In this document: positions 6,006 to 39,178 of the stretch, in pieces
Position numbering within the stretch: position 1 is the first letter of the stretch
How the letters are laid out: every line of letters starts with the position of its first letter
DNA from: Planctomycetota bacterium
GTDB taxonomy: Bacteria > Planctomycetota > Phycisphaerae > UBA1845
DNA length: 64,000 nucleotides
Direction: 5' to 3'
Assembly: GCA_024275565.1 (NCBI GenBank)
Contig: JAJRYY010000009.1
Coordinates: 6,756 to 70,755, forward strand
The notes under the pieces: model-generated
Told to the model about the DNA's origin: nothing
What the model saw: only the letters and a program-made list of their open reading frames with translations
Database searches by the model: none
Translations under genes and position numbers: made by a program

Positions 6006-6223
6006 AACCCCTTGATGAATCCCAGGAAATCTCTATCCGCGCGTGAACCATTGTCAATCCAACTCAGTCTCCTGACCCATAAGTACAGCAGTCGGAGAAC
6101 ACGGGACCAATCAAAGTAACAGGAATAAACGCAAAATCAACCCACAACACGAAGAATTCCAACCCATTTTCTACATGCTCCTCCCTTGCCCACGCCCCAC
6201 TCAACCGATTACAACGTCGCACA

Positions 6224-7703: not shown

Positions 7704-10244
7704 ATGACGTGCAGATCGATACCGTCCCTTCTTCTCGTAGTCACCCTGCTGGGTCTCTATTCTGTGCCCGAGACGGACGCCGCCCAGGTGGTGCTACGGC
7801 CGTCGAAGGACAACACATTGTATGACGGCAACGGTGGCACTCGAAGCAATGGGGCAGGGCAACACGTTTTTTCGGGGAACAATAACAACCCCGCATTGCT
7901 TCCCCGACGGGCGGTGTTCTTCTTCGATGTGGCTGGCAATGTTCCTTCTGGAGCGACCATCAACAGCGTGGTACTCGAACTGAATGTCACGCGTGCCGGA
8001 TCGGGAACTCCGGCGATGAGTCTCCATCGCCTGAATACTGACTGGGGCGAATCTACGTCGCTTCCCAGCGGTGGTGCTGGTGGTGGAGGTGGAGGTGGAC
8101 CGGCTGCTACCGGTGATACGACATGGTTGCATACATTTTTCAACTCGTCGTTCTGGGCATCCCCTGGTGGTGATTTCAGCGGAGTGGTCAGCGGGAGTGC
8201 ATCAGTCGGCGGTGTCGGTTCATACACCTGGGGATCGACCGCGCAGATGGTGGCTGATGTTCAGGACTGGGTAGACAATCCCGCCGGTGAATTTGGGTGG
8301 ATTCTGATTGGTAACGAAGCAGTGACACAGTCTGCCAGGCGGTTTGCATCTCGCCAGAACAGCAATTCGAGTTTGCGGCCTTTGCTGACGATCGATTACA
8401 CAACTTCGGGGATCTCCGGTGCGTGCTGTGCAGGCGATGGAACTTGCACGAACCTCACGCCGCTCGCCTGCAGCAATAGCGGGGGAATCTATCAGGGCGA
8501 CAATGCACCCTGCTTTCCGAATCCCTGTGTTCCTGCCATTGGTGCGTGTTGCGAGAACAGTGGGGTATGCACGGACACAACGGATGCGGATTGCACGCTT
8601 CTGGGCGGCGTTTTTCAAGGCGTGGGCAATCTATGCTCCCCCGGCCTCTGCCCGGTGATCCTGGAACCCTACGTCGATGCTCTGCCGATTCCCGGCGTGT
8701 TGCAACCTGTCACGGGCACGTCTGGCGGGGTGGCTCATTATGTCGTCAACATGCTTGAGTTCGATCAGCAGCTTCATCGCGACCTGCCACCGACCCGGTT
8801 GTGGGGATATGAAGGTTTGTACCCCGGTCCTACGATCGAGGCGACGAGTGGTCAGCAGGTTACGGTGGAGTGGGTCAACGACCTCCGCGATGAGTTTGGG
8901 GTGTTGAGAACCGATCATCTGCTTCCAGTGAATCTCTGTGCGCATGGTCCGAATACCGAAGGCGACAATCCACGCACAGTGGTCCATCTTCACGGCGCTC
9001 ATGTTCAGGAGGAATACGATGGTTATCCTGAAAGCACCTTCCTGCCCGGCGAGAGTGATACTTACATCTACGAGAACAACCAGCTTCCTGCCACGTTGTG
9101 GTACCACGATCACGCGATCGGTATTACGCGACTGAACGTGCAACTCGGTCTTGCTGCATTCTACATCATTCGTGACGCGTTCGAGTTGAGTCTGGGTCTT
9201 CCGGATGGCGAGTTCGAGATTCCCATCGCGATTCAGGATCGCACGTTCAACCCCGATGGATCTCTCGTGTATCCCTTCGACCTGGGCGATTTCTTCTTTG
9301 GCGATACAATGGTGGTCAATGGAAAAGCCTGGCCATTCCTGAACGTCAAGCAGGGCAAATATCGCCTGCGATTGCTGAACGGTTGCAATGCCCGGACGCT
9401 GACGCTTGCGATGTCGTCGGGCGATCCTTTCGTGCGGATCGGTACGGACGGTGGATTGCTGCCCACACCGGTGACGGTGAGTGAAATCACGTTGTCACCG
9501 GCTGAGCGTGCGGATGTCATCATTGATTTCGCCGGGTTCGCACCGGGAACCGAAATCATCCTGACCAACAGCGCTCCTGCACCCTACCCCGGACTGGCTG
9601 GCGTCGGTGTGATTCCCGAAGTCATGAAGTTCATCGTGACGGCGGACCCTGGTGATACCGACCCGATCCCGACGAAACTGCGTCCGATGGAGGTGCTTCA
9701 GGAAGCAGACTCGGTCGTCACGCGTGATTTCGAGTTAAGCAAGGTGGCTGAACCCTGTGCCGGTGCAATGTGGACGATCAACGGTCTGATGTGGAACGAC
9801 ATCACCGAGTTCCCGGTTCTTGATACCACCGAGACGTGGCGGTTCATCAACAAGTCCGGCATGATGCACCCGATGCACATGCACCTTGTGATGTTCCAGG
9901 TACTGGACAGTCAGCCATTCATGATGGTTGGTGACGAGATTGTCACGACGGGTCCTCCCGTAGCACCCCCTCTGCATGAGCAGGGGTGGAAGGACACCGT
10001 GCGGGTCGATCCGTTTGAAATCGTGCGTGTGATCGCCCGGTTCGAGAGCTACACAGGGAAATATGCCTACCATTGCCACATCCTCGAACACGAGGACCAC
10101 GAGATGATGCGGCAGTTCCAGGTCGTTGCACCAGGTGATATTCCGACGATGTCTGAGTGGGGTATGCTGAACCTGGCCATCTGCCTGATGATCGCGGGAC
10201 AACTGATCTTCGCTCGACGAAGGCACAGTTCGATCGCGCGTTAA
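7704..10244 (+). CDS. secreted three-domain multicopper oxidase (CotA/bilirubin-oxidase-like) with N-terminal extension, two Cys-rich repeats and an IPTL-CTERM-like C-terminal sorting tail
   Basis: The four MCO copper-ligand motifs are present: HLHGAHV, WYHDHA, HPMHMH and HCHILEHEDHEMM. A signal peptide is predicted. Residues 230-320 carry two CxxC-rich modules (CCAGDGTCTNLTPLACSNSGG... and CCENSGVCTDTTDADCTLLGG...). The last 30 aa (IPTMSEWGMLNLAICLMIAGQLIFARRR) resemble the IPTL-CTERM motif followed by a TM segment and an Arg cluster. Confidence 0.8.
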   Translation: MTCRSIPSLLLVVTLLGLYSVPETDAAQVVLRPSKDNTLYDGNGGTRSNGAGQHVFSGNNNNPALLPRRAVFFFDVAGNVPSGATINSVVLELNVTRAGSGTPAMSLHRLNTDWGESTSLPSGGAGGGGGGGPAATGDTTWLHTFFNSSFWASPGGDFSGVVSGSASVGGVGSYTWGSTAQMVADVQDWVDNPAGEFGWILIGNEAVTQSARRFASRQNSNSSLRPLLTIDYTTSGISGACCAGDGTCTNLTPLACSNSGGIYQGDNAPCFPNPCVPAIGACCENSGVCTDTTDADCTLLGGVFQGVGNLCSPGLCPVILEPYVDALPIPGVLQPVTGTSGGVAHYVVNMLEFDQQLHRDLPPTRLWGYEGLYPGPTIEATSGQQVTVEWVNDLRDEFGVLRTDHLLPVNLCAHGPNTEGDNPRTVVHLHGAHVQEEYDGYPESTFLPGESDTYIYENNQLPATLWYHDHAIGITRLNVQLGLAAFYIIRDAFELSLGLPDGEFEIPIAIQDRTFNPDGSLVYPFDLGDFFFGDTMVVNGKAWPFLNVKQGKYRLRLLNGCNARTLTLAMSSGDPFVRIGTDGGLLPTPVTVSEITLSPAERADVIIDFAGFAPGTEIILTNSAPAPYPGLAGVGVIPEVMKFIVTADPGDTDPIPTKLRPMEVLQEADSVVTRDFELSKVAEPCAGAMWTINGLMWNDITEFPVLDTTETWRFINKSGMMHPMHMHLVMFQVLDSQPFMMVGDEIVTTGPPVAPPLHEQGWKDTVRVDPFEIVRVIARFESYTGKYAYHCHILEHEDHEMMRQFQVVAPGDIPTMSEWGMLNLAICLMIAGQLIFARRRHSSIAR

Positions 10245-11398: not shown

Positions 11399-12751
11399 TC
11401 AGGATCGACCGTTTCGACCCAGTTTGACAGGGGTTGCCTCGAACTGCTCCTCCTCGGTTGATCCTGCCAGTGCGGTCGTTTCAGCCGCCCCGCCAGTGAC
11501 GAGAGTCTGGATTTTGTCGAAATATCCGGTTCCGACGAACCGCTGGTGCTTGGTGGCCTGGTATCCGAAATCTCGGTCGCTGTCGAATTCATGCTCCTGA
11601 AGTGAAGCGTAGGCGGTCATGCCCTCGTCGCGGTATTTTCTAGCCAGCTCGAACATGCCGAGATTAAGACAATGGAAGCCCGCCAGAGTGATGAACTGGA
11701 ATTTGTATCCCATCGCGCCCAGCTCTCGCTGGAACTTTGCGATCGTTGCGTCGTCGAGCTGGGCCTTCCAGTTGAAGGAGGGGGAACAGTTGTAGGCCAA
11801 CAGCTTTCCGGGATATTCGGCGTGGACTGCCTCGGCGAATCGCTTTGCCTCGCCCAGGTCGGGATGGGCAGTTTCGCACCAGATCATGTCGCAATGTGGG
11901 GCGTATGCGAGGCCTCGGGCGATGGCAGCGTCCATCCCGCCATTGAACCGGAAGAAACCCTCGCTTGTGCGCTCACCAGTGATGAATGGCCGGTCCCGCT
12001 CGTCTGTGTCGCAGGTGAGAAGCTTGCAACCATTGGTGTCGGTGCGTGCGACAAGGACAGTTGGAACGCCGCAGACATCGGCCGCCATCCGTGCCGCAAT
12101 AAGTTTCTGGATGAACTGGTCAGTGGGGACCGCCACTTTTCCGCCCATATGACCGCACTTTTTAGCGGACGATAACTGATCCTCAAAATGCACGCCGGCG
12201 GCGCCAGCTTCGATCATGAGTTTCATAAGCTCGTATGCGTTGAGGTTGCCACCGAACCCTGCTTCCGCGTCTGCGACGATCGGTGCGAACCAGTACTTAC
12301 CCGTCGGATCGTCGCTCATCTGATCCACCTGGTCGGCGCGCATGAGCGCTGCGTTGACCCTTTTAACAACATTTGGGACGCTATCGGAGGGGTAGAGACT
12401 CATGTCGGGATACATTTGACCCGCAAGGTTCGCGTCGGCGGCTACCTGCCAGCCGGACATATAGATTGCTTTCAGTCCGGCCTGGACCATCTGAACAGCC
12501 TGATTTCCGGTCAATGCTCCGAGTGCGTGGACATAATCCTCGGTATGCATGAGGCTCCAGAGGCGTTCTGATCCGAGTGTTGCGAGTGTGTGCTCGATTT
12601 TGACGCTGCCGCGAAGCTGGATGACATCCTCAGCCGTGTAGGGTCGTACAACGCCTGCCCAGCGCGGATCCTTCTTCCAATAATCCTGCATCTGCTGAAC
12701 AATGACGTCGCGGTTACCGTTGATAATCATATTTTTCTCCTCCGGGTTCAA
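11399..12751 (-). CDS. aceA: isocitrate lyase
   Basis: 450 aa containing the ICL signature KKCGHMGGK and the ICL/PEP-mutase fold. Confidence 0.9.
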
Positions 12752-12826
12752 TATCCCAGTCTTGGCTTCCTGTTGTTTAGCTTTCTATATTTGTAGTTTC
12801 CCAGTTTCAGCGTCCCAGTTTCAGAT

Positions 12827-14494
12827 TCACTTGTTTTGCAGCTTCCCCAATAGTTCGTATGCGGGGAGCGTTAGAAAATCGACGAGCGTTTCGTCGGTTG
12901 AAATGCGATCGAAGATGTCTGCGGCTTCGACGAAAGCACCCGCAGCGAAACGCTCTTCTCCGACCCCTTCTCTGATATGTTTCAGCTCATCGCGGAGCAT
13001 TGATTTGAAGAGTTCTTTCGTGATGACAACGCCATCTGTCTGCGCAACAGTTCCATCTGCCCGCTTGACATATCCATCAGACAGCTTTGCACGGTGGCGG
13101 ATCCATTGCCATATCTGTGTGCGTGAGATTTCAGCAGTGGCAGCGTCTTCCATAAGATGATAGAGCGGTACGCAGCCATTCCCGCGTAACCAGCTTTCCA
13201 GATATTGGACGCCGACACTGATATTGTGTCGAAGTCCTTTCTCCGTAATATTCCCACGCGGAACTTCGAGCAGATCGTTCGCCGTAACCATGACATCCCC
13301 GCGTGGCCGATCGATCTGATTCGGGCCTGGCATTTTTTCGTTGAATATATCCATTGCAGTCGATACCAGTCCGGGGTGCGCCACCCACGTCCCATCATGC
13401 CCTTCTTCAACTTCGCGTAATTTGTCTGCACGGACTTTGGCGATGGCTGCTTCGTTTGCCTTCGGATCAGATTTTATCGGAATCTGTGCAGCCATACCGC
13501 CCATGGCATGGGCACCTCGGCGGTGACATGTTTGAATGACATACCGTACATAGTTCCGCATCAATGGAACGGACATCGATATCTGGTCACGGTCCGGTAA
13601 TACAAATCTGGAATTATTTCGGAATGTTTTAACAAAACTGAAAATATAATCCCAACGTCCGCAATTCAGACCGGCTGAGTGGTCCCGAAGCTCGTACAGA
13701 ATTTCATCCGCTTCAAAGCTGGCCAGCACATGCTCAATGAGCACGGTTGCCTTGATCGATCCACGCGGGATGCCCAGTTCGTCCTGAGCGGTCTTGAAGA
13801 GGTCGTTCCAGAGTCGTGCTTCGAGGTGGTTCTGCAATTTCGGAAGATAATAATAGGGTCCAGAACCGTTATTGAGCAGCGTCCTGGCGTTGTGGAAGAA
13901 GTACAGCGCAAAATCGAAAATGCTACCGGAAACGGGTTGATTATCGACCCTGAGATGTTCCTCAACCAGATGCCAACCTCGCGGGCGGATCATGAGCGTC
14001 GCAGGATGATCGAAGAGTTTGTATTGCTTCCCTTCGGAGTTTGTGAATGCGATGGTGCGATTGACTGCATCACGCATGTTTATCTGCCCCTGGACCATGT
14101 TGTCCCAGGTTGGCGAATTGGAATCCTCAAAGTCTGCCATGAAACATTGCACGCCACTGTTGAGGGCATTGATGACCATTTTTCGATCGGTGGGTCCGGT
14201 AATCTCCACGCGTCGATCGCGCAGGTCATTCGGTATGGGCGCTATTTTCCATTTCGATTCCCGGATCCCCTCAGTCATTTCCAGAAAACCGGGCATATGC
14301 CCGGCGTCAATATCGCATTGGCGATCGATACGCTTGTTCAGGAGGTCGATGCGTGTTGCGTTATGGGACCGGTGGAGCGTCGCAATGAACGCGAGCGCCT
14401 CTGGTGTAAGGATTTCTGCGTATTCGGGCGTCACCAGCCCATTTATGGATATACCGTCCGTTACAACTGTCGCAATGCGCGCAACCATACTCAC
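12827..14494 (-). CDS. aceB: malate synthase A
   Basis: The 555-aa ORF has family-wide similarity, for example [29 protein letters not shown]. It lies immediately upstream of aceA on the same strand, giving the aceBA operon. Confidence 0.9.
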
Positions 14495-14655
14495 CCCTTT
14501 TTTCCAAAGGAAATATCGTTATCGGTGCATGTTCAATCGAGAAGTATGCCAGGAAACGACTCCATACATACTGCATTATGGGTCGTATTACTTTTCCCCT
14601 TTCCATCTCGTACGTATCATTCGTAGCGATTGAAGAATAATTAGGCAAACTAATA

Positions 14656-27612: not shown

Positions 27613-29076
27613 TCAGGCAATCAATGAATACACTGTAATCGAGACAGCAGCGATCATAGCCGCCGCCGCAAGCCACGCGAGAATCCGACGAAAATCGTAT
27701 TCTACCCAGGTGAAAACCTGATCCAGTTTATCAAGTCCCGTAACGAGCGCCTCAGCCACCAGGAGCAATCCATTGCGGGCAGGCGACCAGATGCGATCGT
27801 AAAATGGAATACAGACACGTTCGCGAATCGGCAGCCAGGCATGCCTGAGGGCGATCGCACGCATTCTCGCCACATGGGTGCCAAACGAGATGGATGGATT
27901 GGATGACTTGGATGGATTGGATGACGAATCGCCTTTTGGCTTCCCGGGTGCTGTTTCAGTCTCTTTTGAAACGTCCGACGCCTCGGGGGGAGCGGGCGAA
28001 TCATCCGTAAAGTCCGGGATCGGATCAGTCTCTGAGACGAACCGTGCAGCCTCCAGATCTGTTAAATCAGGCTGCGGTGAATTCAAGGACTCCTTCGAGA
28101 TATCGCCCGTCTCTTCGACAAGATCGGACGGTCTCACTGCATTGTCAGGAACCACGGCCTCTGATTCAGCGACATCCGATTCAGCGACATCGAAGTCAGC
28201 AGACTCGGATTCAGCGACGTGAGATTCAGCAGCCTCGGATTCCGCAGCCTCGGATTCAGCAGCGTGGGCTTCAACGACATCATTGTCATTGAACGAACCC
28301 GGACGCGCCCCGCCATCAGAGATCACGTCATCGGTCGAGGCAGCGTTCTCTTCTGCGACCAGTGAACTTGCGGCGTCGATTTCCTCCGCAATCCCATAGT
28401 CAGTCTCATCTGTCATCTCAGCGATGAGGTCTTCGACGTGTACCAGTTCGGCTTCCAGTTGCTCGTGCGAGACGCGTTCAGGATGCTCGGAAGAGGGGAG
28501 ATCGGCGCTTCCAGATGCAGGCAGTTCGGAATATTCCCCGGTCGATCCGGGTGACAGGGGATCTGCCCCGTCGGATGCACCCGACGCCTCATCGTCGATC
28601 CCGGTTGCAGCCGGCTTGAGGATACCGACTTCCCGACCGAGTTCGTGGGACAGGTCGGTGGCTTCGTCCAGCACACGGTCAACCTCTGTTCCCACCAGCC
28701 CAGACGGGTCCAACCCGGTCGGATCAAACCCGGTCGGATCAAGCACAGACGGGTCAAGCCCAGTCGGATCAAGCCCGGTCGGATCAAACCCAGCCGAGTC
28801 CAGCCCAGCCGAGTCCAGCCCAGCCGAGTCCAGCCCGGTCGGGTCCAGTCCAGACGGGTCAAGCCCTGGCGGATTAGGGCTGACAGGATCAGGCGTCGGA
28901 AAATCAGGTGCAGACGAATCAGGCTCAGCCGGTTCATGCCCAGGCGTATTGGATCCAGCCGCTCCGGGTTCAGGCGGATCGGGTTCGGGTGGGCTGGGTT
29001 CGGTTTGTTCAGGGGGGTCGGGCATAGAAATCAGGTCTCGCGGTATCCGGAGTATCATCGGAGGATACTGCCGCAA
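27613..29076 (-). CDS. tail-anchored acidic repeat protein (hypothetical)
   Basis: 487 aa. About 13 tandem (P/S/T/A)GLD peptide repeats and AESE repeats are encoded by DNA-level tandem repeats (28680-28870). There is a single C-terminal TM helix and a conserved ~90-aa C-terminal region. Confidence 0.5.
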   Translation of the reverse strand: MRQYPPMILRIPRDLISMPDPPEQTEPSPPEPDPPEPGAAGSNTPGHEPAEPDSSAPDFPTPDPVSPNPPGLDPSGLDPTGLDSAGLDSAGLDSAGFDPTGLDPTGLDPSVLDPTGFDPTGLDPSGLVGTEVDRVLDEATDLSHELGREVGILKPAATGIDDEASGASDGADPLSPGSTGEYSELPASGSADLPSSEHPERVSHEQLEAELVHVEDLIAEMTDETDYGIAEEIDAASSLVAEENAASTDDVISDGGARPGSFNDNDVVEAHAAESEAAESEAAESHVAESESADFDVAESDVAESEAVVPDNAVRPSDLVEETGDISKESLNSPQPDLTDLEAARFVSETDPIPDFTDDSPAPPEASDVSKETETAPGKPKGDSSSNPSKSSNPSISFGTHVARMRAIALRHAWLPIRERVCIPFYDRIWSPARNGLLLVAEALVTGLDKLDQVFTWVEYDFRRILAWLAAAAMIAAVSITVYSLIA

Positions 29077-29143
29077 TCTCCAGAGCGACTGAGAATTGCC
29101 ATCCTGTATTGTGAATTACCGACCAGCAGCGATAATCCCAGCC

Positions 29144-29878
29144 ATGCGCATCCCACGGGTACACCATCCAGAATTGCAGATCGCCAGGAATGACCGTCTC
29201 CAGTTGTCGCTGGCTGAGGCGCAGCACGTCCGTGCAGTATTACGCTGCGGCGTTGGGGACGCGGTCCGTGTGTTTGACGGTGACGGCGGGGTGGCCGACG
29301 GGCAGATCGCCGAAATCAGCCGGCGGGACGTCTTCGTAGAAGTTGGCCGCATAACAAAATGGGCGTTTCCGAGCGAACTGAAGGTGACGCTGGCGGTGGC
29401 TGCTCCGAAAGGGCCTCGGCAGAGTGTACTGGTCGAAAAATGCACAGAACTGGGCGTCTGGGGCATATGGCCGGTGGTCTTCGAGCGCAGCGTCGTGAAA
29501 CCGGGGTCGGGTGTGATCGAGAAATGGCGGCGGACTGCCATCGAATCCTGCAAGCAGTGCGGGCGTGACTGGACGCCGAGGATCGCTGAAACAGTGGATT
29601 TCGAGTCGGCTGCGTCGAAATTCGGTGAATTCTCGCAAGTATTTGTTGCACATAAGGATACTGCATTTTCAATGCTTTCAGAACTTTCTGCATCAGAAGA
29701 TGGGGTCCACGGCAACATTCTGGTCTGGATTGGTCCGGAGGGTGGGATGACCGATAACGAACTGGGGATGTTGCAGGAGGCTGGTGGCGTTGGCGTTCGG
29801 CTTGGGGCGCATGTTTTGCGCATCGAGACCGCTGCCATCGCAACTGCTTCGATTTTGTGTTCCGGGCGAGTAAAGTGA
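29144..29878 (+). CDS. rsmE: 16S rRNA (uracil1498-N3)-methyltransferase
   Basis: MRIPRVHHPELQ...LSLAEAQHVRAVLR is the typical RsmE N-terminal PUA-like start. A SPOUT C-terminal domain follows. Confidence 0.8.
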   Translation: MRIPRVHHPELQIARNDRLQLSLAEAQHVRAVLRCGVGDAVRVFDGDGGVADGQIAEISRRDVFVEVGRITKWAFPSELKVTLAVAAPKGPRQSVLVEKCTELGVWGIWPVVFERSVVKPGSGVIEKWRRTAIESCKQCGRDWTPRIAETVDFESAASKFGEFSQVFVAHKDTAFSMLSELSASEDGVHGNILVWIGPEGGMTDNELGMLQEAGGVGVRLGAHVLRIETAAIATASILCSGRVK

Positions 29879-29990: not shown

Positions 29991-30902
29991 ATGATGGCAT
30001 TTTTGCGGTTGATGCGTCCGGCGCAGTGGATCAAGAATCTGGCGGTGCTGGCTGGTCCTGCGTTTGCGATGCAGTTTGGCGAGGACGCGGTCTGGAACAC
30101 GCTGTTGATTTTTGTAGCGTTTTGTCTGATCTCGAGTGCAAGCTACGCGATCAATGATGTGATGGATCGTGAGGCTGACGCGTTGCATCCCAAGAAGAAG
30201 ACGCGTCCGATTGCGTGTGGGGATGTGTCGCCGGGGGCTGCGATCGTTCAGGCGATCCTGCTGGTGGTGGCTGGCGTGGGGTTGAGTGCGAAGATGCTGC
30301 CACTCGGATGTACGGTCATTCTGGTGGCGTATTTTGTGGTGATATTGTCTTACTCGCTGGCGTTGAAACGCCGGATGATTCTGGATGTGATTTTGATCGC
30401 GGTGGGGTTTGTGCTTCGGGCGACAGCCGGTGCGGAGGCGGTCGAGGTTGTGGTGTCGCCGTGGCTGATCGTTTGTACTTTTACGATTTGCTTGTTCATG
30501 GGGTTCGGTAAGCGGCGATGCGAGATTGCTCAGTTTGGGTCGCTGGAGGAAGCCAGCGAGCATCGGCTGACGTTGCTTCGGTATACGCCGGAGTTTTTGA
30601 ATCATCTGATCAGCGTGTCAGCCGGGATCGCGATCATGACGTTTTTGCTCTACACGATGGATCGCAACCCGGAGTATGCACCGCCGTTTCGGAAGGACCA
30701 TCTGCTGTACACGATGCCGCTGGTGGTCTATGGGGTGTTTCGGTTTGCCATGCTGGTGCAGAGCGGGAATCGCCAGGGGCCTATGGATATCATCGTGCGG
30801 GATAAGCCGTTTATCGGGACGATCGTGATCTGGGGCCTGCTGGCGGTTGCGATTATGACGGAGAAGTACTGGCTGGCAGCGGTCGGGTTCGGGGCTGGGT
30901 GA
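29991..30902 (+). CDS. UbiA-family prenyltransferase (decaprenyl-phosphate phosphoribosyltransferase-like)
   Basis: The NDVMDREAD aspartate-rich motif is present and the protein is multi-TM. The segment 30575-30690 is duplicated in degenerate form at 32767-32885. Confidence 0.7.
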   Translation: MMAFLRLMRPAQWIKNLAVLAGPAFAMQFGEDAVWNTLLIFVAFCLISSASYAINDVMDREADALHPKKKTRPIACGDVSPGAAIVQAILLVVAGVGLSAKMLPLGCTVILVAYFVVILSYSLALKRRMILDVILIAVGFVLRATAGAEAVEVVVSPWLIVCTFTICLFMGFGKRRCEIAQFGSLEEASEHRLTLLRYTPEFLNHLISVSAGIAIMTFLLYTMDRNPEYAPPFRKDHLLYTMPLVVYGVFRFAMLVQSGNRQGPMDIIVRDKPFIGTIVIWGLLAVAIMTEKYWLAAVGFGAG

Positions 30903-31042
30903 TTGTGGATAAAGTTAGGGGATTATTACATGGTTGAAGGAAAAAATAACTGCGTCCCCCGTTTCAAGTCACCCGTATTACACCCTACTCAATCCAATCG
31001 CCGCAGACGGATGAAGAGTTACATTAGATCCAACCTATGGAG

Positions 31043-31684
31043 TCAAATGAACTTATCGAGTTCATCGGGATTCTTCAGAAACGTCTTGATCAACTCACCG
31101 CGCTTTAGCAACCAATCTGAATGCCCGAGGTCTTTCCGCATCGCCCGTAGTAGGTCATCCATTGCAACCAGGATATTCAAATCACTATTTTCTGACGCTA
31201 CACGAAACTTGCCGTATGCCTGAATGACATCACGCGACCCCCATATGACAAGATCAGTGACGAATTCCTGGTAGAAAGACACCAGTTCCGTGTTTTCTGC
31301 GATAGCGTTGCCCGAGTTGTCATTCTTGTACTTAATCATCACGTCCATGACTTTCTTGATGAACCTGACGTAAAGCTGGATTTTCTGCGGACGATGCGAT
31401 TCCGAAATCTCGCGCGTTTTAGATCGCTGCTGGGAAATAATGACAGCACCGAATCCGACAATAGACGTTGCGGCGCCAGCGATAATCGCAGCAACGACTT
31501 CGGACTCCACCGATGACAACCATCTCAGAACGACAAGCCCGCCCATCCGTATCCCAACAAGAATGCCCATTACGATCGCGATTGCGGATAAGGTAGGAAG
31601 AGCCGCGTAAACTCGACTCATCCTATTATTCGAATTCGTTCCTATGTCGGCAAGCACTTCGTCGCCTGGGTTGAGCTTGATCAT
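31043..31684 (-). CDS. hypothetical 2-TM membrane protein encoded in a low-GC islet
   Basis: 213 aa. Local GC is roughly 45% against ~60% in the surroundings. No recognisable motif. Confidence 0.45.
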   Translation of the reverse strand: MIKLNPGDEVLADIGTNSNNRMSRVYAALPTLSAIAIVMGILVGIRMGGLVVLRWLSSVESEVVAAIIAGAATSIVGFGAVIISQQRSKTREISESHRPQKIQLYVRFIKKVMDVMIKYKNDNSGNAIAENTELVSFYQEFVTDLVIWGSRDVIQAYGKFRVASENSDLNILVAMDDLLRAMRKDLGHSDWLLKRGELIKTFLKNPDELDKFI

Positions 31685-32115
31685 CGGTTGAGCTCGCTAT
31701 TCAGTTTCATCGAGGCGCTGTTGAATCGCATCCGGGTATTGAAACGGGGACGTAGCTAGCTAAGACGCTCCCCATCATATGGGCATGTCCATTGCGACCG
31801 TATGCCAACGCGATGCTTGTTCTGGACATGCGTTGTTGCCTTCTGCCGTTGAATTGATGGCCCAGTATATATTGTTGCCTAACAGAAGTCAAATATGGGA
31901 TTGGCATGGCTGTGCGAGATGGTTGTGATGTTGAGGTCGGTTTTTTGCCTGTATATTGGAGATTTTGGTGGTTTGGGGGACGGGTGACGCGTTGGGTTTG
32001 TCGATGTCGGGCAATGCCCGACCTACCTTCCGGCGGGTGAAACCCGCCCTGCAGGGGTTTCATGAGCTATTTCCGGTCTTAACGTCCGAATAATGGAACA
32101 CGGTTTGACTAGAAC

Positions 32116-32138
32116 GACTTAGTCGTGTAGACTAAGTC
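32116..32138. promoter_or_regulatory. perfect 9-bp inverted repeat (GACTTAGTC-gtgta-GACTAAGTC) overlapping the antitoxin start; putative TA operator
   Basis: The palindrome lies 2 bp upstream of the ATG at 32140. Confidence 0.4.
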
Positions 32139-32139
32139 T

Positions 32140-32385
32140 ATGGGGATGGTAAACATCCACTGAAGCAGCAAGACGCACCTCTCGAAATTGCTGGAGCGGA
32201 TTGCGCGCGGTGAAGAGATTATCATCGCCAAGGCAGGCAAGCCCATTGCACGATTGATCCCCTATACTGATCGCCACGCACCGCGCGTTGGCGCTCAGTG
32301 GAAAGGTCTTGTCCGCATCCATGAAGATTTCGACGAACCCCTGCCTCCAGAGATGAATGCAGGATTCATGGGTGAAGGCCCGTGA
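32140..32385 (+). pseudogene. Phd/YefM-family antitoxin gene interrupted by an in-frame TGA at codon 8
   Basis: MGMVNIH*SSKTHLSKLLERIARGEEIIIAKAGKPIARLIPY...DFDEPLPPEMNAGFMGEG matches the Phd-type antitoxin family apart from the stop at 32161-32163. Confidence 0.6.
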
Positions 32386-32764
32386 GTGGTTACCTGCTGG
32401 ATACGCACGTCATTTTGTGGTGGCTGGATGAGATCCCACCCAATTGTCTTCTGAGGCTTGCGAGGCGATTTCAGACGCGGATAATGATGTGTTTGTGAGC
32501 GCTGCCGTCGCCTGGGAGATGGCGATCAAGAAATCCATCGGGCGCCTCGACATTCCCGGCAATCTACCAGACGTGCTCAGTTCTGACATCATTAAGGTGC
32601 TAGACATCAACATCCATCACGCCCTGGCTGTGGGTGATTTGCCGATCCTCCTCCAGGATCCCTTCGACCGCATTCAGATCGTTCAGGCCAATCTGGAAAA
32701 TCTGATCCTGATTACCCACGACAAAAGAGTTCAGCAATACGACGTGAAATGGTGGGCCACCTGA
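32382..32764 (+). pseudogene. VapC-like PIN-domain toxin gene with a frameshift near 32420-32445
   Basis: Frame 0 reads VSGYLLDTHVILWWLDEIPP..., which is the PIN N-terminus. The remainder (LSSEACEAISDADNDVFVSAAVAWEMAIKKSIGRLDI...) continues in another frame (32444-32764). Confidence 0.6.
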
Positions 32765-32766
32765 TC

Positions 32767-32885
32767 AGGTTACGGTATACGCCGGTGTTTTTGAATCATC
32801 TGATCAGCGTGTCAGCCGGGATCGCGCGATCATGACGTTTTTGCTCCACACGATGGATCGCAACCCTGAGTATGCCCCGCGACCT
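32767..32885 (+). repeat. degenerate ~115-bp duplicate of an internal 3' segment of the UbiA-family gene (30575-30690)
   Basis: cggtatacgccggtgtttttgaatcatctgatcagcgtgtcagccgggatcgcg...acgatggatcgcaaccctgagtatgcc matches the original with about 8 differences. Confidence 0.7.
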
Positions 32886-33099
32886 GCCCCCATTTTATGT
32901 ACTGAAAAACATCCTGATGATCTGCCAACCGGAGTTGGTGAATCACCTGTTTACACGGGGCGTAACGACCTCGAGCCGAGCAATGACGGGTCTTGAAATT
33001 CCACCGCCCAGCCCCAACGCCTACCTGTCGATTTGACGAATATCAGCCGTCCAGAGAGGCTGCCGCCGATTTCTTCTTTGCCAGGCTGGATATGCCCGG

Positions 33100-33139
33100 C
33101 GGCGTCCATCTCTGCAGAGCGGCGTCCATCTCTGCAGAG
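33100..33139. promoter_or_regulatory. perfect 20-bp tandem duplication, each unit containing the palindrome CTCTGCAGAG, ~250 bp upstream of the G8 protein gene
   Basis: cggcgtccatctctgcagag occurs twice, back to back. Confidence 0.35.
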
Positions 33140-33391
33140 ATGTGCGATGCCATCCAGCAACACTTCAAGCAGCCTTGAGTTACTCCAAACAGCCTTGAAT
33201 TCGTACCGGATTATGCTAAAGTAGTGCTTCAGATTTCATCTGATGGGGAAAACCTGCCCCAGAACGCACGTTGTCGCATTTCGAATTTGTCAACGCTCAG
33301 GTTTCGCGAGCGGCGGGGTGATTGTTCATCTCAGAAGCATTGGTCGCAGGTGAAAAGCAAAATTTACTCAGACAGGAAAGGAGTCCTACTT

Positions 33392-36300
33392 ATGCACAGG
33401 ACGCTCTGTGGAACCGTTGTAATGTTGGCTGCCATACTCACCGGTGACGTGCTACTCGCACAATTCCAGGCCGGTCCGGTTTTACCAATCCTCGGCCCCA
33501 TCAGGCAGGGAGGTTTTGAATGGCCTGATCAGGGTAACGATTTTGCGTACACGCCGGGAGGATCGTTTTGGGCATTCACTGGCGGAACCGGACTGGCCGG
33601 CAACGGCAGTGGGTTCACACGTTTCAATCCCCCCGCACCCCAGGGAGACCAGGTCTGCTTCATACAGAATGCTTCGAACAGCACAGTGAGTCAGAAATTC
33701 ATATACCCCGCTGGCCGATACAGATTCAGGGTCAAAGCTGCCCAGCGCCTGCGAGGCAACGGAAATCTTGACCAGCAAACTATCAGCTTGCGGATCGATG
33801 GCACGGAAATACTCAGCATCACCCCGCCCGATGAAAACTACACCCAGTACATCACCGATTATATTCTGCTGGACAGCTCGTCCCACGTGCTCACGTTTGT
33901 CGGCATGCAGAACGGTGGAAACTCCGCTTTTATCGACCAGGCGCAGGTTCAGTCCCTCAACGCAACCGCAGACAACTGGTCGGACCCAGGCACATGGCAG
34001 AATGGGGTCGTACCCGGTCCAACCGTGGATGCCACGATTCCCCTCGGCCAGACGGTTCTGCTGGATACTGACGCAAATGTCAAATCACTGACGGTCTTGG
34101 GATCGCTGTATTGCAAAGACGACGACGTATCCATCACAGCAAACTTCATCAATGTCTCAGGCTGGTTCGAATGTGGATCGGAAACAAGTCCACATCTTCA
34201 AAATATGACCATGACACTCAACGCGCCCCACAATCACCCTCCATGCACTCCGCCTGAAACTCCGAACTGTGAACAGACCACCTGCGATACCCGATGCGAT
34301 GGAACCTTTGAACCGTCGACGAAACACCTCATGGCCATACAAGGTGGAACCATCGAACTCCACGGCGAACCGCGTCTCAGCTGGACACAGATAAGCGCCA
34401 CAGCAGCCGTCGGTGACACATCGATTACCGTCATTGACCCGGTCGACTGGCGCATCGGTGATCAGATTGTCATTGCACCCACTTCAGAGAATACCAACGA
34501 AGGAGAAGAAGTCACCATTACCAACGTCAGCAACAACGGGCTGACCATAGATTTCACCCCAGGACTGCAATTCGAACATTACGGAGAACAGACCACATAC
34601 AACAACGGGGTGACTTCCTGGGTTCTCGATGAACGCGCGGAAGTGGGCCTGCTGACACGCAACATCGTGCTGAAGGCTGCCGAAGGAACAACTTCAGACG
34701 GTTACGGTGCACACATGATGACCATGAATGGTGCATTCTCCCGTGTCTCGGGCGTTGAGTTTTATCAGGTAGGCCAGGCAGGTCATCTCGCCCGATACCC
34801 CTTCCACTGGCACCTCGCAGGCGATGCCACCGGACAATACATCAGAAACTGCTCAATTCACAACAGTTACCACCGATGCGTCACCCTTCATGGAACCAAC
34901 AACGCGGACATATCGGACAACGTATGTTACGATATCCTGGGACATGCCTACTTCATCGAAAATGGCACTGAAGTCGACAACACATTCGATCACAACCTGG
35001 GAATCCTGACCAGAAAGGTACCGAAAGTAGATGCGGTACTCGAATCCGATTATCGCAATGGCTCTGCATCCAATGGTCCAGCCACCTTCTGGATTCGTCA
35101 CCCGGACAACATCTACACGAACAATGCAGCCGCCGGTTCTGAGGGTTCGGGCTACTGGTACGGCATGCTTCAGGGCGATGACTCACTATTTGCCCAGTTC
35201 GGGAAGTTTGAAAACAACCGTGTCCACTCATCTCGGCAGGGGTATACAGCCTGCAGCAACCCAAGCGGTCCACACGGAATGAATCCACCAACACCGGCGG
35301 TTCTCCAGGGACTCACCGTCTCCAACTGCAAACAGGGGGTTTGGCCATGTGCAGCCAGCCAGACAGCAGAAAAGTCGATCTTCAAGAACATGATCGTCGC
35401 AAACTGCGAGAATGGATTTCAGGCACCCAATCCGGTCGCTCTGGAAGACTCGCTGTTTGTCGGGTATTCGAACAATGCCCCGCAGGCAGCCGAACTCGGT
35501 AGCAACTCAAACTGGCGAGGCGTTCAGGTATACGATCAGGGGTTCCTTTTCACCAATATACACTTTGAAAACTACGATCGCCCGTTCATGACGGCCTTCT
35601 TCCCAGGCGGAGGGGCCCACAAACATGCAAATAACCGCGCCATAGGCCTGACATTCAACAATGCCCCCAATGTATTCCTTGACCCAAACAACTTCTGGAA
35701 GATCGGCAACGTCCCCGGATGGTGGGGAGACGTGATACACGATCTCGACGGAAGTCTGGTAGGCGATGACTGGGCCTTCGTGGCAGGCCATCCCGTCATG
35801 TTCGATCGAACATGCACTCAGCCAACCAACATGAACACCGACGGATACGCATGCCCCTATCGCTATGCCCATTTCCGAAGCGAACACTTCGCCTCCATCG
35901 ATCCGATCACCGTGATTCGGTCCGACGGCTATAGCAACACAAGTGGTCATATCAATGCCCGTTTCATCACGGAAATCATCATGGATGACTCTTACTTCTA
36001 CACATACCGCTACTCCACAGGGCTGAAGTTCAAAAAGCTTCAAGTCTCACTGCGGAACGCCTTCGGCGGCGACAACGCGGTGTACGAGTTCCTGGACGTC
36101 CCGTCGACCTTCAGCATTCCAACCAGCGGTTGGCAGCAGGCTTCTTCAGTGGACGATCTCATGACAGGCGCGGGACACCGATATGTCTGGCGAGACCATT
36201 CGCTGTTCCTTAAGATGCAAGCCAGCGGTGATGACTGGCATGCGACCGACATAGTCGACATTTGCCTGAGAGACGTCAATTGTGCACTAACGCATGAGGT

Positions 36301-37369
36301 AGGAACGCCACCTGTGGTAACGATCACCGCCCCACCGGACGGCGCTCGCTACCCCGTGGGTGCAGGCGTCATCGTACGAGCCAACATCACCGACCCATCT
36401 GGCAGCGCTCCCATTGTGTCTGCCCAGCTCTACCTGAACACCACCCTGATCGGTTCGGACATCGACTCACCCTACCTGTGGCGGCTGCTAAACATCCCGC
36501 AAGGCGACCACGTTCTCAAGGTCGTGGCGATCAATGCAAACGGCGACACATTTACACAGGTCCAGCAGATGTTCGGAGGCGATGTGCATCCACGCATCGA
36601 AATCACGTCCCACACGGACAACATGACCGTCAATGCAGACACGCCCATCACGATCGACTACGACCTCGCCAACTGGGGCGCCGCAGGTGAACATCTGCAC
36701 TGGTACATCAACAATGAATACCAGGGCGACTTCACGCCGGGAACGCAGCTGATGATTCCAGTAAATGGATTGTCGCAAGGCGTCCAGGAACTGAAAATTG
36801 CACTGGCAGCCGCCGACGAAACCGTACTCGCCATCAATGACACTGTTCGGCTTTACGCCATGAAAAACTACCTCATCGCCGACTATGAAACCGGCGTCGA
36901 TACGCGTACTTCTTTCACGGCTGACGATACGAACATAGGTCAGTTGTCAAAGATCAAGTTCGCATGGGGCACGCAGGAACCGGAGGCTAGTTATGCCGAT
37001 GGTCAGGACGACATCAACTACTTCGATGTCTACGACAATCAGGACGGCACGTTCGGGTTCGCAACATACCGACTCAATCTCGACCCGCAGCAGGACTGGT
37101 CGTCATTCATCAGCCTCGAGATAAGATCCAGCAGCAACCTCGATTTCGAGTGCTTCGTCGTGGATGCAACACAGGGTTCGACCAGCCTGGGTTTCCGAAC
37201 CACCGCCGGCTCCATCACAACGCTGGATCTGGAATTGCTTCCATCCACGCTCATCGACGAGGTTATCGCAATAGAGCTTCGTTTCGACGAGTCAACCATC
37301 GCCCCGGATACGTTCCATCGCCTGCATCTGGAGCATATTCGCCTGATAGAAGATCCAACTATCCCATAA
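33392..37369 (+). CDS. giant secreted G8-domain / right-handed beta-helix (PbH1) protein, putative glycan lyase/hydrolase
   Basis: A signal peptide follows a strong SD. A G8-like N-terminal domain is present (NWSDPGTWQNGVVPG...VLLDTDANVKSLTVLGSLYC). Pectate-lyase-like beta-helix repeats follow (NCSIHNSYHRCVTLHGTNNADISDNVCYDILGHAYFIENG). The C-terminal region is Ig-like. Confidence 0.7.
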   Translation: MHRTLCGTVVMLAAILTGDVLLAQFQAGPVLPILGPIRQGGFEWPDQGNDFAYTPGGSFWAFTGGTGLAGNGSGFTRFNPPAPQGDQVCFIQNASNSTVSQKFIYPAGRYRFRVKAAQRLRGNGNLDQQTISLRIDGTEILSITPPDENYTQYITDYILLDSSSHVLTFVGMQNGGNSAFIDQAQVQSLNATADNWSDPGTWQNGVVPGPTVDATIPLGQTVLLDTDANVKSLTVLGSLYCKDDDVSITANFINVSGWFECGSETSPHLQNMTMTLNAPHNHPPCTPPETPNCEQTTCDTRCDGTFEPSTKHLMAIQGGTIELHGEPRLSWTQISATAAVGDTSITVIDPVDWRIGDQIVIAPTSENTNEGEEVTITNVSNNGLTIDFTPGLQFEHYGEQTTYNNGVTSWVLDERAEVGLLTRNIVLKAAEGTTSDGYGAHMMTMNGAFSRVSGVEFYQVGQAGHLARYPFHWHLAGDATGQYIRNCSIHNSYHRCVTLHGTNNADISDNVCYDILGHAYFIENGTEVDNTFDHNLGILTRKVPKVDAVLESDYRNGSASNGPATFWIRHPDNIYTNNAAAGSEGSGYWYGMLQGDDSLFAQFGKFENNRVHSSRQGYTACSNPSGPHGMNPPTPAVLQGLTVSNCKQGVWPCAASQTAEKSIFKNMIVANCENGFQAPNPVALEDSLFVGYSNNAPQAAELGSNSNWRGVQVYDQGFLFTNIHFENYDRPFMTAFFPGGGAHKHANNRAIGLTFNNAPNVFLDPNNFWKIGNVPGWWGDVIHDLDGSLVGDDWAFVAGHPVMFDRTCTQPTNMNTDGYACPYRYAHFRSEHFASIDPITVIRSDGYSNTSGHINARFITEIIMDDSYFYTYRYSTGLKFKKLQVSLRNAFGGDNAVYEFLDVPSTFSIPTSGWQQASSVDDLMTGAGHRYVWRDHSLFLKMQASGDDWHATDIVDICLRDVNCALTHEVGTPPVVTITAPPDGARYPVGAGVIVRANITDPSGSAPIVSAQLYLNTTLIGSDIDSPYLWRLLNIPQGDHVLKVVAINANGDTFTQVQQMFGGDVHPRIEITSHTDNMTVNADTPITIDYDLANWGAAGEHLHWYINNEYQGDFTPGTQLMIPVNGLSQGVQELKIALAAADETVLAINDTVRLYAMKNYLIADYETGVDTRTSFTADDTNIGQLSKIKFAWGTQEPEASYADGQDDINYFDVYDNQDGTFGFATYRLNLDPQQDWSSFISLEIRSSSNLDFECFVVDATQGSTSLGFRTTAGSITTLDLELLPSTLIDEVIAIELRFDESTIAPDTFHRLHLEHIRLIEDPTIP

Positions 37370-39025: not shown

Positions 39026-39095
39026 AAGAGGGGCGGGATTCGAACCCGCTACCGCACGGTTAAACCGTGTGCTCTTACCAGATGAGCTACCCAGG
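39026..39095 (-). tRNA. tRNA-like gene (possible tRNA pseudogene) with canonical D- and T-arms but non-pairing acceptor stem
   Basis: The reverse complement reads ...TAGCTCATCTGGTAAGAGC-A-CACGGTTTAACCGTGCG-GTA-GCGGGTTCGAATCCCGC-CCCTCTTG. The T-loop is TTCGAAT. The anticodon region contains TTTAA, giving either a UUA or UAA anticodon depending on how the loop is drawn. Confidence 0.45.
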
Positions 39096-39178
39096 TGGTC
39101 TGGACAGGAATCGAACCTGCTTCACTGTAAGGTGACAGCCCTTAACAGGCTGCGCTCGACCATCGAGCATCCAGAACC
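39096..39178 (-). tRNA. class-II-like tRNA (15-nt variable arm), anticodon loop TGTTAAG, isotype unresolved
   Basis: The reverse complement reads GGTTCTGG-AT-GCTCGATGGTCGAGC-G-CAGCC-TGTTAAG-GGCTG-TCACCTTACAGTGAA-GCAGGTTCGATTCCTGT-CCAGACC-A. The acceptor stem pairs only with one bulge or mismatch. Confidence 0.55.

What the first reader, a model, noticed from the sequence alone, without database searches (positions are those of the whole stretch)
30903..32885. Low-GC ~2 kb islet inserted after the UbiA-family gene, bounded by a decayed duplicate of that gene's 3' region
The composition drops from ~60% GC to roughly 45% immediately after the UbiA-family gene stop at 30902. The low-GC segment carries an orphan 2-TM gene, a ~400-bp structured non-coding stretch and a Phd-VapC toxin-antitoxin pair. 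It ends with a ~115-bp degenerate copy (32767-32885) of an internal 3' segment of the UbiA-family gene (30575-30690), with about 8 substitutions or indels. A gene-fragment duplication flanking foreign-composition DNA is the classic scar of site-specific integration into the 3' end of a gene. No integrase remains, so this looks like an old, eroded integrative element.
Basis: seen in the sequence. Interest (0 to 1): 0.7.

Follow-up and report, generated by a model that had tools for sequence, protein, structure and literature searches.

The report
Small accessory islet with duplicated gene fragment
Downstream of a cell-envelope prenyltransferase gene in a Phycisphaerae genome lies a 2.5-kb patch holding one intact unknown membrane-protein gene, a dead toxin-antitoxin pair and a 109-bp decaying copy of part of the neighbouring gene; the copy is real, but the evidence does not show it is the scar of an integrating mobile element, so the locus is fairly ordinary.

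Summary
The core observation holds. Window 30579-30685, inside the UbiA-family gene, is repeated at 32773-32881 with 4 substitutions and one 2-nt insertion. It is the strongest dispersed repeat in the 64 kb (E 7e-41).

Several details were overstated:
- GC falls from 56.8% to 50.5%, not from 60% to 45%.
- GC3 and tetranucleotide usage of the islet genes are host-like.
- The "structured" non-coding stretch folds no better than shuffles.
- The "orphan" gene belongs to a family with over 3,000 cluster representatives.
- Both toxin-antitoxin genes are pseudogenes.

The integration-scar reading fails most of its own tests:
- The repeat is internal and ends 217 nt before the stop codon.
- No displaced 3' end follows the second copy.
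- Native-looking coding sequence separates copy A from the islet.
- No integrase lies in the islet ORFs or the ORFs scanned to about 10 kb on each side.
- None of 55 related loci shows a second block.
- None of 21 related toxin-antitoxin loci carries a ubiA fragment.

In 42 relatives ubiA is followed directly by a DUF362 gene that is absent here, so the islet sits at a synteny breakpoint. My best reading is a mosaic accessory segment in which a local illegitimate rearrangement left the fragment (0.5). An eroded integrative element remains possible (0.27). Interest is low.

The parts
29991..30902 (+). UbiA-family gene (decaprenyl-phosphate phosphoribosyltransferase type), intact, 303 codons
   Evidence: NF008977 at 239.7 bits (cutoff 234); PF01040 at 5.6e-26. 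Homologues align over residues 1-301.
30579..30685 (+). Copy A of the repeat. It encodes the most conserved block of the C-terminal half (RYTPEFLNHLISVSAGIAIMTFLLYTMDRNPEYAP).
   Evidence: Conservation in 60 homologues is shown.
30903..31042 (.). AT-rich spacer (43.6% GC) between the convergent ubiA and orf213 genes
30947..30978 (.). Left arm of an imperfect inverted repeat of about 30 nt that flanks orf213
   Evidence: 26 of 32 columns match the reverse complement of 31730-31758; 0 of 500 shuffles reach the score.
31043..31684 (-). orf213: an intact gene for a two-TM-helix hairpin plus helical-bundle protein. By alignment with homologues the true start is probably Met22, at 31621.
   Evidence: 19 homologues at 32-61% identity. 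Profile search: 3015 cluster representatives at E <= 1e-3. AlphaFold2 pLDDT 82. No Pfam, PADLOC or PHROG family.
31730..31758 (.). Right arm of the inverted repeat that flanks orf213
31685..32103 (.). Non-coding region upstream of orf213, carrying a promoter-like site on the minus strand (31892-31864, 10 of 12 matches). It is not a structured RNA.
32104..32140 (+). Promoter/operator of the toxin-antitoxin cassette (TTGACT-17-TAGACT overlapping a palindrome). Homology to other cassettes starts here.
32141..32385 (+). phd/yefM-type antitoxin pseudogene. A net +3 nt change creates an in-frame TGA at 32162-32164 (codon 8).
   Evidence: TIGR01552 at 29.2 bits (cutoff 20.8); PF02604 at 29.6 bits, just under its 29.8 cutoff. 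The lesion was mapped against L066.
32382..32764 (+). vapC (PIN) toxin pseudogene. A +2 nt insertion at about 32430-32431 shifts the frame.
   Evidence: PF01850 at 9.7e-15 after repair. Intact relatives are all 126 aa; the best is 87% identical. Lesion mapped.
32773..32881 (+). Copy B: a decaying pseudogene fragment of ubiA that starts 8 nt after the vapC stop codon
   Evidence: 94.5% identical to copy A, against 72-82% to ubiA of other genomes. Its two non-synonymous changes hit residues conserved in 57 of 60 and 60 of 60 homologues, and it carries a frame-breaking CG insertion.
32882..33391 (.). Non-coding leader of the G8 gene, with two 20-nt tandem duplications (33099-33138 perfect; 33162-33201 at 85%). 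No UbiA remnant.
33392..37369 (+). Secreted G8 / CEMIP beta-helix / Big_7 protein gene; host-like composition

Best explanation
The 2.5 kb between the ubiA-family gene and the G8 gene is a mosaic accessory segment at a lineage-specific synteny breakpoint. It is not a recognisable single mobile element.

It contains:
(i) orf213, an intact gene for a small membrane protein. Its large uncharacterised family turns up sporadically, sometimes inside defence islands. Here it is bracketed by an inverted repeat of about 30 nt.
(ii) A self-contained Phd/YefM-VapC cassette (promoter plus two genes, 32104-32764). It is dead: a premature stop in the antitoxin and a frameshift in the toxin.
(iii) A 109-nt pseudogene fragment copied from this genome's own ubiA.

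Inferred mechanism for (iii): an illegitimate, non-site-specific rearrangement. The simplest version is a tandem duplication of about 2.2 kb with its junction at 32772|32773, most of whose second copy was later removed by a deletion ending at 32881|32882. A templated patch laid down during break repair would give the same picture. After that the fragment drifted neutrally while copy A stayed under selection.

Shown: the anatomy, the direction of decay, the pseudogene state, the lack of integrase and of a displaced 3' end, and the synteny break. Inferred: the order of events and the rearrangement mechanism.
For: Repeat geometry:
- The repeat is real, direct, sharply bounded at both ends, and unique in the window.
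- Copy B is closest to the resident ubiA (94.5%, against 82% or less to any other genome), so it arose within this lineage.
- Copy B is the decaying copy: E201V and Y221H hit conserved residues, and it has a frame-breaking CG insertion.

ubiA 3' part looks native:
- The profile search finds only copy B in 30903-33400 and nothing matching UbiA residues 233-303.
- The 3' part has GC3 of 0.79, like the rest of the gene.
- Identity to homologues tracks the 5' part (Spearman rho 0.43, p = 7e-4).
- Nucleotide similarity to relatives runs uninterrupted across position 30685.

No recombinase:
- No recombinase domain in the islet ORFs, or in the ORFs of 180 aa or more that I scanned out to about 10 kb on each side.

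Synteny:
- In 42 of the 55 related loci (about 50 have enough downstream sequence to judge) ubiA is followed 24-424 nt downstream (1499 nt in one locus) by a DUF362 gene that is absent from the whole window. No window ORF other than ubiA matches any relative's flanks.

The toxin-antitoxin cassette is a separate module:
- Its homology to 21 other loci is confined to 32103-32752, and none of those loci has a ubiA fragment.

Composition:
- Codon-position composition of the islet genes is host-like.
Against: - No close relative exists, so neither the empty site nor an intermediate with a full tandem duplication can be observed.
- The model needs two or three separate events.
- No microhomology is visible at the junctions.
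- It does not explain why copy B starts only 8 nt after the vapC stop codon.
- A direct repeat of a conserved gene block bracketing accessory genes is also what an att duplication looks like.
- The repeated block is the most conserved part of the gene's C-terminal half, the kind of target integrases favour.
Confidence: 0.5

Rival explanations
1. Eroded site-specific integrative element of the e14/icd type. An element carrying a copy of the ubiA 3' region from position 30579 onward recombined with the chromosomal gene. Copy A then lies within attL, and copy B is what remains of attR with the displaced host 3' end. Later deletions removed the integrase and the last 217 nt or more of the displaced fragment.
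For: - A 107/109-nt direct repeat brackets accessory genes.
- The repeated block is the most conserved stretch of the C-terminal half of UbiA, a typical choice of attachment site.
- A toxin-antitoxin cassette sits right at the putative attR end.
- orf213 relatives occur in defence islands.
- The islet has the lowest or second-lowest GC in the window.
Against: - The repeat stops 217 nt before the stop codon, and no trace of the displaced 3' end follows copy B. With only about 4% divergence in copy B, neutral decay cannot have erased it, so a separate deletion abutting copy B is required.
- No integrase or remnant was found.
- The sequence just after copy A is native-looking ubiA, and the composition changes only at the stop codon.
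- No second block in any of the 55 related loci, and no integrase among the first downstream ORFs of the 9 loci where the DUF362 gene is absent or displaced.
- No ubiA block in IMG/VR contigs.
- No ubiA fragment next to 21 related toxin-antitoxin cassettes.
Confidence: 0.27
2. One-step capture of DNA from a closely related strain. A fragment carrying orf213, the toxin-antitoxin cassette and a piece of that strain's ubiA was inserted downstream of ubiA. This could have been homology-facilitated or end-joining insertion after transformation or transduction. Copy B would then be donor DNA rather than a local duplicate.
For: - Copy B differs from copy A by about 5%, compatible with a sister-strain allele.
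- The best VapC relative (87%) is much closer than the best UbiA relative (70%), which hints that the cassette moves between Phycisphaerae.
- Host-like GC3 fits a donor of similar composition.
Against: - It requires the donor to have had a ubiA fragment abutting vapC, which only moves the problem to another genome.
- Both non-synonymous differences in copy B hit conserved residues and its frame is broken, so it was not a working allele.
- Homology-anchored insertion replaces the anchor rather than duplicating it (established knowledge, not tested here).
Confidence: 0.1
3. Assembly artefact. The window comes from a metagenome-assembled contig, and copy B could be a chimeric join involving a strain variant of ubiA.
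For: - The source is a single NCBI contig of 70,755 bp with no second copy in any database.
- A 5% difference is in the range of strain variants.
Against: - Copy B is embedded between unique sequence on both sides. It shares nothing with either flank that could seed a false join.
- It carries a frame-breaking indel and two damaging substitutions, as a true pseudogene fragment would.
Confidence: 0.05

Closest known systems
e14 / phage 21 integration in the E. coli icd gene (icd plus the icdC C-terminal pseudogene)
   Same: A direct duplication of part of a housekeeping gene brackets accessory DNA. The gene stays intact, and the second copy is a pseudogene fragment on the far side (PMC13626634).
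   Different: - In e14 the duplicated part is the C-terminal end of the gene, and icd itself extends into the prophage.
- An integrase and an SOS-inducible excision system are present there.
- Here the block is internal, the last 72 codons are not duplicated, nothing recombinase-like remains, and the segment is only about 2 kb.
Small variable segments / microdiversity generated by illegitimate recombination (Touzain et al. 2010, PMC2884548)
   Same: Short strain- or lineage-specific segments between conserved genes. They have no mobile-element signature, and a minority are flanked by direct repeats.
   Different: That work describes mostly 20-500 bp segments, and most flanking repeats were under 30 bp, within well-sampled species. 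Here the segment is about 2.5 kb and the repeat 107 nt. No conspecific genomes exist to show presence/absence polymorphism.
Chromosomal type II Phd/YefM-VapC(PIN) toxin-antitoxin cassettes
   Same: Antitoxin then toxin with overlapping stop and start (GTGA). A sigma-70-like promoter carries a palindromic operator. The same 650-bp unit occurs in many different contexts in other genomes.
   Different: Both genes are inactivated here, so the module cannot work as an addiction or defence system.
Mobile insertion cassettes / MITE-like units (terminal inverted repeats around a passenger gene, no transposase)
   Same: orf213 is bracketed by an imperfect inverted repeat of about 30 nt, unlikely by chance (0 of 500 shuffles).
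   Different: - No target-site duplication.
- No second copy of the repeat in 64 kb.
- Among five homologous loci only L056 shows a weaker flanking repeat (8 of 500 shuffles); the other four do not.
- The arms could equally pair the 5' and 3' untranslated regions of the mRNA.

Membership tests
Integrative-element scar in the 3' end of a protein-coding gene (e14/icd type) | Direct repeat (attL/attR) flanking the inserted DNA | tested here: met
   30579-30685 against 32773-32881, 94.5% identical, E = 7e-41.
Integrative-element scar in the 3' end of a protein-coding gene (e14/icd type) | The repeat covers the gene's 3' terminus, and the displaced 3' fragment sits at the far end | tested here: not met
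   The repeat ends 217 nt before the stop codon. The UbiA profile finds nothing for residues 233-303 in 30903-33400.
Integrative-element scar in the 3' end of a protein-coding gene (e14/icd type) | Integrase or recombinase gene (or a remnant) inside the element | tested here: not met
   No Pfam hit in the islet ORF fragments. The ORFs of 180 aa or more that I scanned out to about 10 kb on each side are not recombinases.
Integrative-element scar in the 3' end of a protein-coding gene (e14/icd type) | Foreign DNA begins at the inner edge of attL | tested here: not met
   30686-30902 has GC3 of 0.79 like the rest of ubiA and is as similar to relatives as the 5' part. The GC drop starts at the stop codon.
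Integrative-element scar in the 3' end of a protein-coding gene (e14/icd type) | Empty site in relatives, or recurrent use of the same site | tested here: inconclusive
   No relative is closer than 70% aa identity. In 55 related loci there is no second block, and no integrase among the first downstream ORFs of the 9 loci where the DUF362 gene is absent or displaced. No hits in viral contigs.
Type II toxin-antitoxin system, Phd/YefM antitoxin with VapC (PIN) toxin | Phd/YefM-family antitoxin directly upstream of a PIN-domain toxin | tested here: met
   TIGR01552 at 29.2 bits (cutoff 20.8). PF01850 at 9.7e-15 on the repaired frame. 79% aa identity for each protein to the L066 pair.
Type II toxin-antitoxin system, Phd/YefM antitoxin with VapC (PIN) toxin | Both reading frames intact | tested here: not met
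   In-frame TGA at 32162-32164 in phd. A +2 nt frameshift at about 32430 in vapC, where intact relatives are 126 aa.
UbiA superfamily, decaprenyl-phosphate phosphoribosyltransferase type | Full-length match above the curated cutoff | tested here: met
   NF008977 at 239.7 bits against a cutoff of 234, over residues 2-292.
Remnant of a local tandem duplication or templated repair patch | Same orientation, nearby, derived from the resident gene, sharp ends | tested here: met
   Direct repeat 2194 nt apart. 94.5% identical to the resident copy against 82% or less to other genomes. Identity falls to random at both ends.
Remnant of a local tandem duplication or templated repair patch | An intermediate (full duplication) or junction microhomology is observable | not testable with these tools
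   No close relatives or reads are available. No microhomology is seen at 32772|32773 or 32881|32882 by inspection.
Mobile insertion cassette / MITE-like unit around orf213 | Terminal inverted repeats | tested here: met
   30947-30978 against 31730-31758: 26 of 32 columns match, 0 of 500 shuffles reach the score.
Mobile insertion cassette / MITE-like unit around orf213 | Target-site duplication and multiple genomic copies | tested here: not met
   No matching flanks by inspection. A search with the right-arm sequence found only that arm in the window at up to 2 mismatches.

The most novel reading that the evidence does not exclude
The conserved RYTPE(L/F)LNHLISVSAGIAIMTFLLYTMD-coding block of the Phycisphaerae decaprenyl-phosphate phosphoribosyltransferase gene is the attachment site of an undescribed family of small integrative elements. 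On this reading these elements insert inside an essential envelope gene and supply a replacement 3' end. The islet (orf213, the toxin-antitoxin cassette and copy B) would be the last remnant of one such element, with orf213 as its defence cargo.
Probability: 0.12. Interest if true: 0.45.

Novelty: new member of a known kind. Interest (0 to 1): 0.22.

Why it matters
This is mainly a cautionary case. A gene-fragment direct repeat next to accessory genes looks like an att scar. Here the geometry does not fit one: the block is internal, there is no displaced 3' end, and there is no recombinase. The apparent "foreign composition" largely disappears once codon position and non-coding content are accounted for.

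Two modest leads follow from the work:
- orf213 belongs to a sizeable family (more than 3,000 cluster representatives) of roughly 190-aa two-TM proteins with no Pfam model. In two independent genomes it sits inside defence islands.
- In Phycisphaerae the DPPRT gene is almost always paired with a highly conserved DUF362 gene, which suggests a functional link.

Tried and rejected
Tests that could not be completed or found nothing:
- Empty-site and synteny test. I fetched 55 related genome loci, but the closest is only 67-69% identical in UbiA and no flanking gene is shared.
- Exact-protein look-ups of UbiA, orf213 and the 87% VapC relative found no contig.
- Prophage or viral carriers of the ubiA block. 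Three protein or profile scans and one degenerate DNA pattern in IMG/VR gave only chance matches.
- ubiA fragment travelling with the toxin-antitoxin cassette. 21 loci with related cassettes show no ubiA block, and homology is confined to the cassette.

Ideas rejected on the evidence:
- A third, older ubiA fragment at 32929-32949 (PELVNHL). The profile score is 0.5 bits, so I rejected it as chance.
- Chimeric ubiA with a foreign 3' end. There is no phylogenetic or compositional discordance between the 5' and 3' parts.
- Structured RNA in 31685-32140. Folding z-scores are 0.05 and -1.34, and Rfam reports no match there.
- Integron cassette or attC. I checked only by eye for R'/R''-type sites after vapC and orf213 and saw nothing convincing. 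No attC model was run.

orf213 function:
- Plasmids gave one weak hit and phages none.
Full report
**1. What is at the coordinates**

The gene at 29991-30902 is a UbiA-family prenyltransferase of the decaprenyl-phosphate phosphoribosyltransferase type (NF008977, 239.7 bits against a cutoff of 234; PF01040). It is preceded by rsmE at 29096-29878 (TIGR00046, 1.7e-42). Related sequences place the window in a Phycisphaerae genome, and the source is one NCBI contig of 70,755 bp.

Window 30579-30685 matches 32773-32881 with four substitutions and one 2-nt insertion, and identity falls to background at both ends. In a self-comparison of the whole window it is by far the strongest dispersed repeat (E = 7e-41; the next best is 8e-15, a local tandem).

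**2. Which copy is decaying, and where it came from**

- Copy A encodes residues 197-232, the most conserved block of the C-terminal half of the protein.
- The two non-synonymous differences in copy B change E201, which is E in 57 of 60 homologues, and Y221, which is Y in 60 of 60.
- The 2-nt insertion, a CG added at the centre of the palindrome GATCGCGATC, breaks the frame.
- Copy B is therefore a pseudogene fragment, while copy A is under selection.
- Copy B is 94.5% identical to the resident ubiA but only 72-82% identical to ubiA of any other genome. It was therefore copied within this lineage, or from a very close relative, fairly recently.

**3. Composition**

- The window averages 55.4% GC. 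ubiA is 56.8% and 30903-32772 is 50.5%.
- That is 2.7 sd below the mean of same-size windows, and only 0.4% of windows are as low. A patch over the malate synthase gene at about 12.3-14.5 kb is equally low.
- Tetranucleotide distance from the window average is unremarkable (z < 1).
- GC3 is 0.57 for orf213 and 0.64-0.66 for the toxin-antitoxin genes. Thirty long ORFs of the window give a mean of 0.62 and a range of 0.53-0.72.
- The GC dip therefore comes from non-coding DNA and from first and second codon positions of orf213. There is no foreign codon signature.
- The drop begins at the ubiA stop codon. The 217 nt of ubiA after copy A have GC3 of 0.79, like the rest of the gene.

**4. Contents of the islet**

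(a) orf213 (31043-31684, minus strand)
- It is intact. Alignment with homologues suggests the real start is Met22.
- A word-indexed search found 19 relatives at 32-61% identity.
- A profile search of 1.84 billion cluster representatives found 3015 at E <= 1e-3 and 262 at E <= 1e-30, nearly all 185-215 aa long. It is not an orphan.
- No Pfam, PADLOC or PHROG family matches it.
- Homologue contexts are mixed. One sits between a HEPN_Swt1-SNF2 helicase/SACS/NOV_C cluster and HigBA. One sits in a Fluviicola island with DarT-Macro, RadC, WYL and an AAA_15/21 ATPase. Others lie among ordinary genes.
- In the window the gene is bracketed by an imperfect inverted repeat of about 30 nt (30947-30978 and 31730-31758), and 0 of 500 shuffles reach its score.

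(b) Non-coding stretch 31685-32140
- It folds no better than shuffled sequence (z = 0.05 and -1.34), and Rfam reports no match there.
- It carries promoter-like sites facing each gene.

(c) The toxin-antitoxin cassette
- Nucleotide homology to a Phycisphaerae locus (L066, 75% over 650 nt) and to more distant loci is confined to 32103-32752. That span is promoter/operator plus both genes.
- Against L066, phd has a net +3 nt change creating TGA at codon 8 (32162-32164). vapC has a +2 nt insertion near 32430 that shifts the frame.
- Intact relatives are uniformly 126 aa, and the best is 87% identical. Both genes are pseudogenes.

(d) Copy B begins 8 nt after the vapC stop codon.

(e) Leader 32882-33391 is non-coding, contains two 20-nt tandem duplications, and leads to the G8/CEMIP-type gene.

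**5. Tests of the integration-scar reading**

In the textbook case, e14 in E. coli icd, the gene extends into the prophage and a C-terminal pseudogene (icdC) lies at the far end (PMC13626634). Four expectations fail here:
- The repeat is internal and stops 217 nt before the stop codon.
- A UbiA profile searched against all six frames of 30903-33400 hits only copy B. Nothing corresponds to residues 233-303. Copy B has diverged by only about 4%, so a displaced 3' end could not have decayed out of sight. It would have to have been deleted flush with copy B.
- The sequence just after copy A looks native. Nucleotide similarity to relatives runs through position 30685 to about 30876. Identity of the 3' part to 59 homologues correlates with that of the 5' part (rho 0.43, p = 7e-4).
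- The islet's ORF fragments have no Pfam hit, and the ORFs I scanned over roughly 10 kb on each side are not recombinases.

Comparative searches add nothing in its favour:
- None of the 55 related loci has a second ubiA block within 8 kb.
- None of the first downstream ORFs in the 9 loci where the DUF362 gene is absent or displaced is an integrase.
- IMG/VR contigs contain no ubiA block.
- None of 21 loci with related toxin-antitoxin cassettes has a ubiA fragment.

**6. Synteny**

- In 42 of the 55 related loci (about 50 have enough downstream sequence to judge), ubiA is followed by a gene with a DUF362 domain that is 70-80% identical across the clade. It starts 24-424 nt downstream in 41 of them and 1499 nt in L026. 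It is better conserved than ubiA itself.
- The two closest relatives have an NAD-dependent epimerase there instead.
- Neither gene, nor any other flanking gene of the seven closest relatives (L001-L007), has a homologue anywhere in the 64-kb window.
- The DNA after ubiA is therefore a lineage-specific synteny breakpoint.
- No protein closer than 70% to this UbiA exists among 5.8 billion, so an empty-site comparison is not possible.

**7. Interpretation**

The islet is best described as a mosaic accessory segment at a rearrangement-prone junction. It holds one live accessory gene, one dead toxin-antitoxin module and one gene-fragment duplicate.

The geometry of the fragment is what a partly deleted tandem duplication, or a templated repair patch, would leave. 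It is in direct orientation, 2.2 kb away, derived from the resident gene, sharply bounded and internal to the gene. That is my preferred mechanism (0.5). It rests on inference, because no intermediate can be observed.

The eroded-integrative-element model is not excluded (0.27). The block is highly conserved, it brackets accessory genes, and a toxin-antitoxin cassette sits at the putative attR end. It needs at least two extra deletions, one of them flush with copy B. Capture of sister-strain DNA (0.1) and an assembly artefact (0.05) are less likely.

**8. Verdict**

This is a new instance of a known kind of small variable segment (compare PMC2884548) and is of low general interest.

Noticed in passing
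window 39030-39178 (minus strand): Two tandem tRNA-like elements lie directly downstream of rtcA/rtcB, with rtcR divergent. ARAGORN calls 39094-39177 a 'tRNA-Stop' with anticodon TTA. Rfam gives tRNA at 39030-39092 (40.6 bits, above gathering), a sub-threshold tRNA-Sec-like match at 39097-39178, and a weak YrlA (Y RNA-like) match. This looks like a tRNA-like or Y-RNA-like RNA attached to an RNA-repair operon, and no Ro/Rsr gene is evident (the next scanned ORF is a Band_7/SPFH gene).
   Followed up: partly
window 30947-30978 and 31730-31758: An imperfect inverted repeat of about 30 nt brackets orf213, and 0 of 500 shuffles reach its score. It could be terminal repeats of a passenger cassette or pairing between the 5' and 3' untranslated regions. 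There is no target-site duplication and no other copy in the window. Of five homologous loci only L056 shows a weaker flanking repeat (8 of 500 shuffles).
   Followed up: partly
L001, L003, L005-L011 and others (42 of 55 related loci), immediately downstream of ubiA: In Phycisphaerae the DPPRT-type ubiA gene is almost always followed on the same strand by a DUF362 gene of about 395 aa. That gene is 70-80% identical across the clade and better conserved than ubiA itself, which suggests a functional pair. It is absent from this 64-kb window.
   Followed up: partly
window 33099-33138 and 33162-33201: Two adjacent 20-nt tandem duplications lie in the leader of the G8/CEMIP-type gene. One is perfect (GCGGCGTCCATCTCTGCAGA, twice) and one is 85% identical. 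The first overlaps a palindrome.
   Followed up: no
window 27613-29076 (minus strand), especially 28144-28293 and 28650-28936: A 487-aa ORF with no Pfam match contains long runs of 15-nt (5-aa) repeats, for example PTGLD/SAGLD and AESE units.
   Followed up: no
window about 12300-14500: A second low-GC patch (50.1% in 1870-nt windows) lies on an ordinary malate synthase gene. Low GC alone does not mark foreign DNA in this genome.
   Followed up: yes
L026:5714-6844; L072, L079, L080: In one relative (L026) a single DUF5677 gene is inserted between ubiA and its DUF362 partner. Several metagenome loci carry the same Phd-VapC cassette as tandem duplicates.
   Followed up: no
L058-L061 (about 1-7200) and L068 (about 280-9400): orf213 homologues sit in defence-island-like neighbourhoods. 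One has a HEPN_Swt1-SNF2 helicase, SACS, NOV_C and HigBA. The other has DarT-Macro, RadC, WYL, DUF1883 and an AAA_15/21 ATPase. The family has more than 3,000 cluster representatives and no Pfam model.
   Followed up: partly
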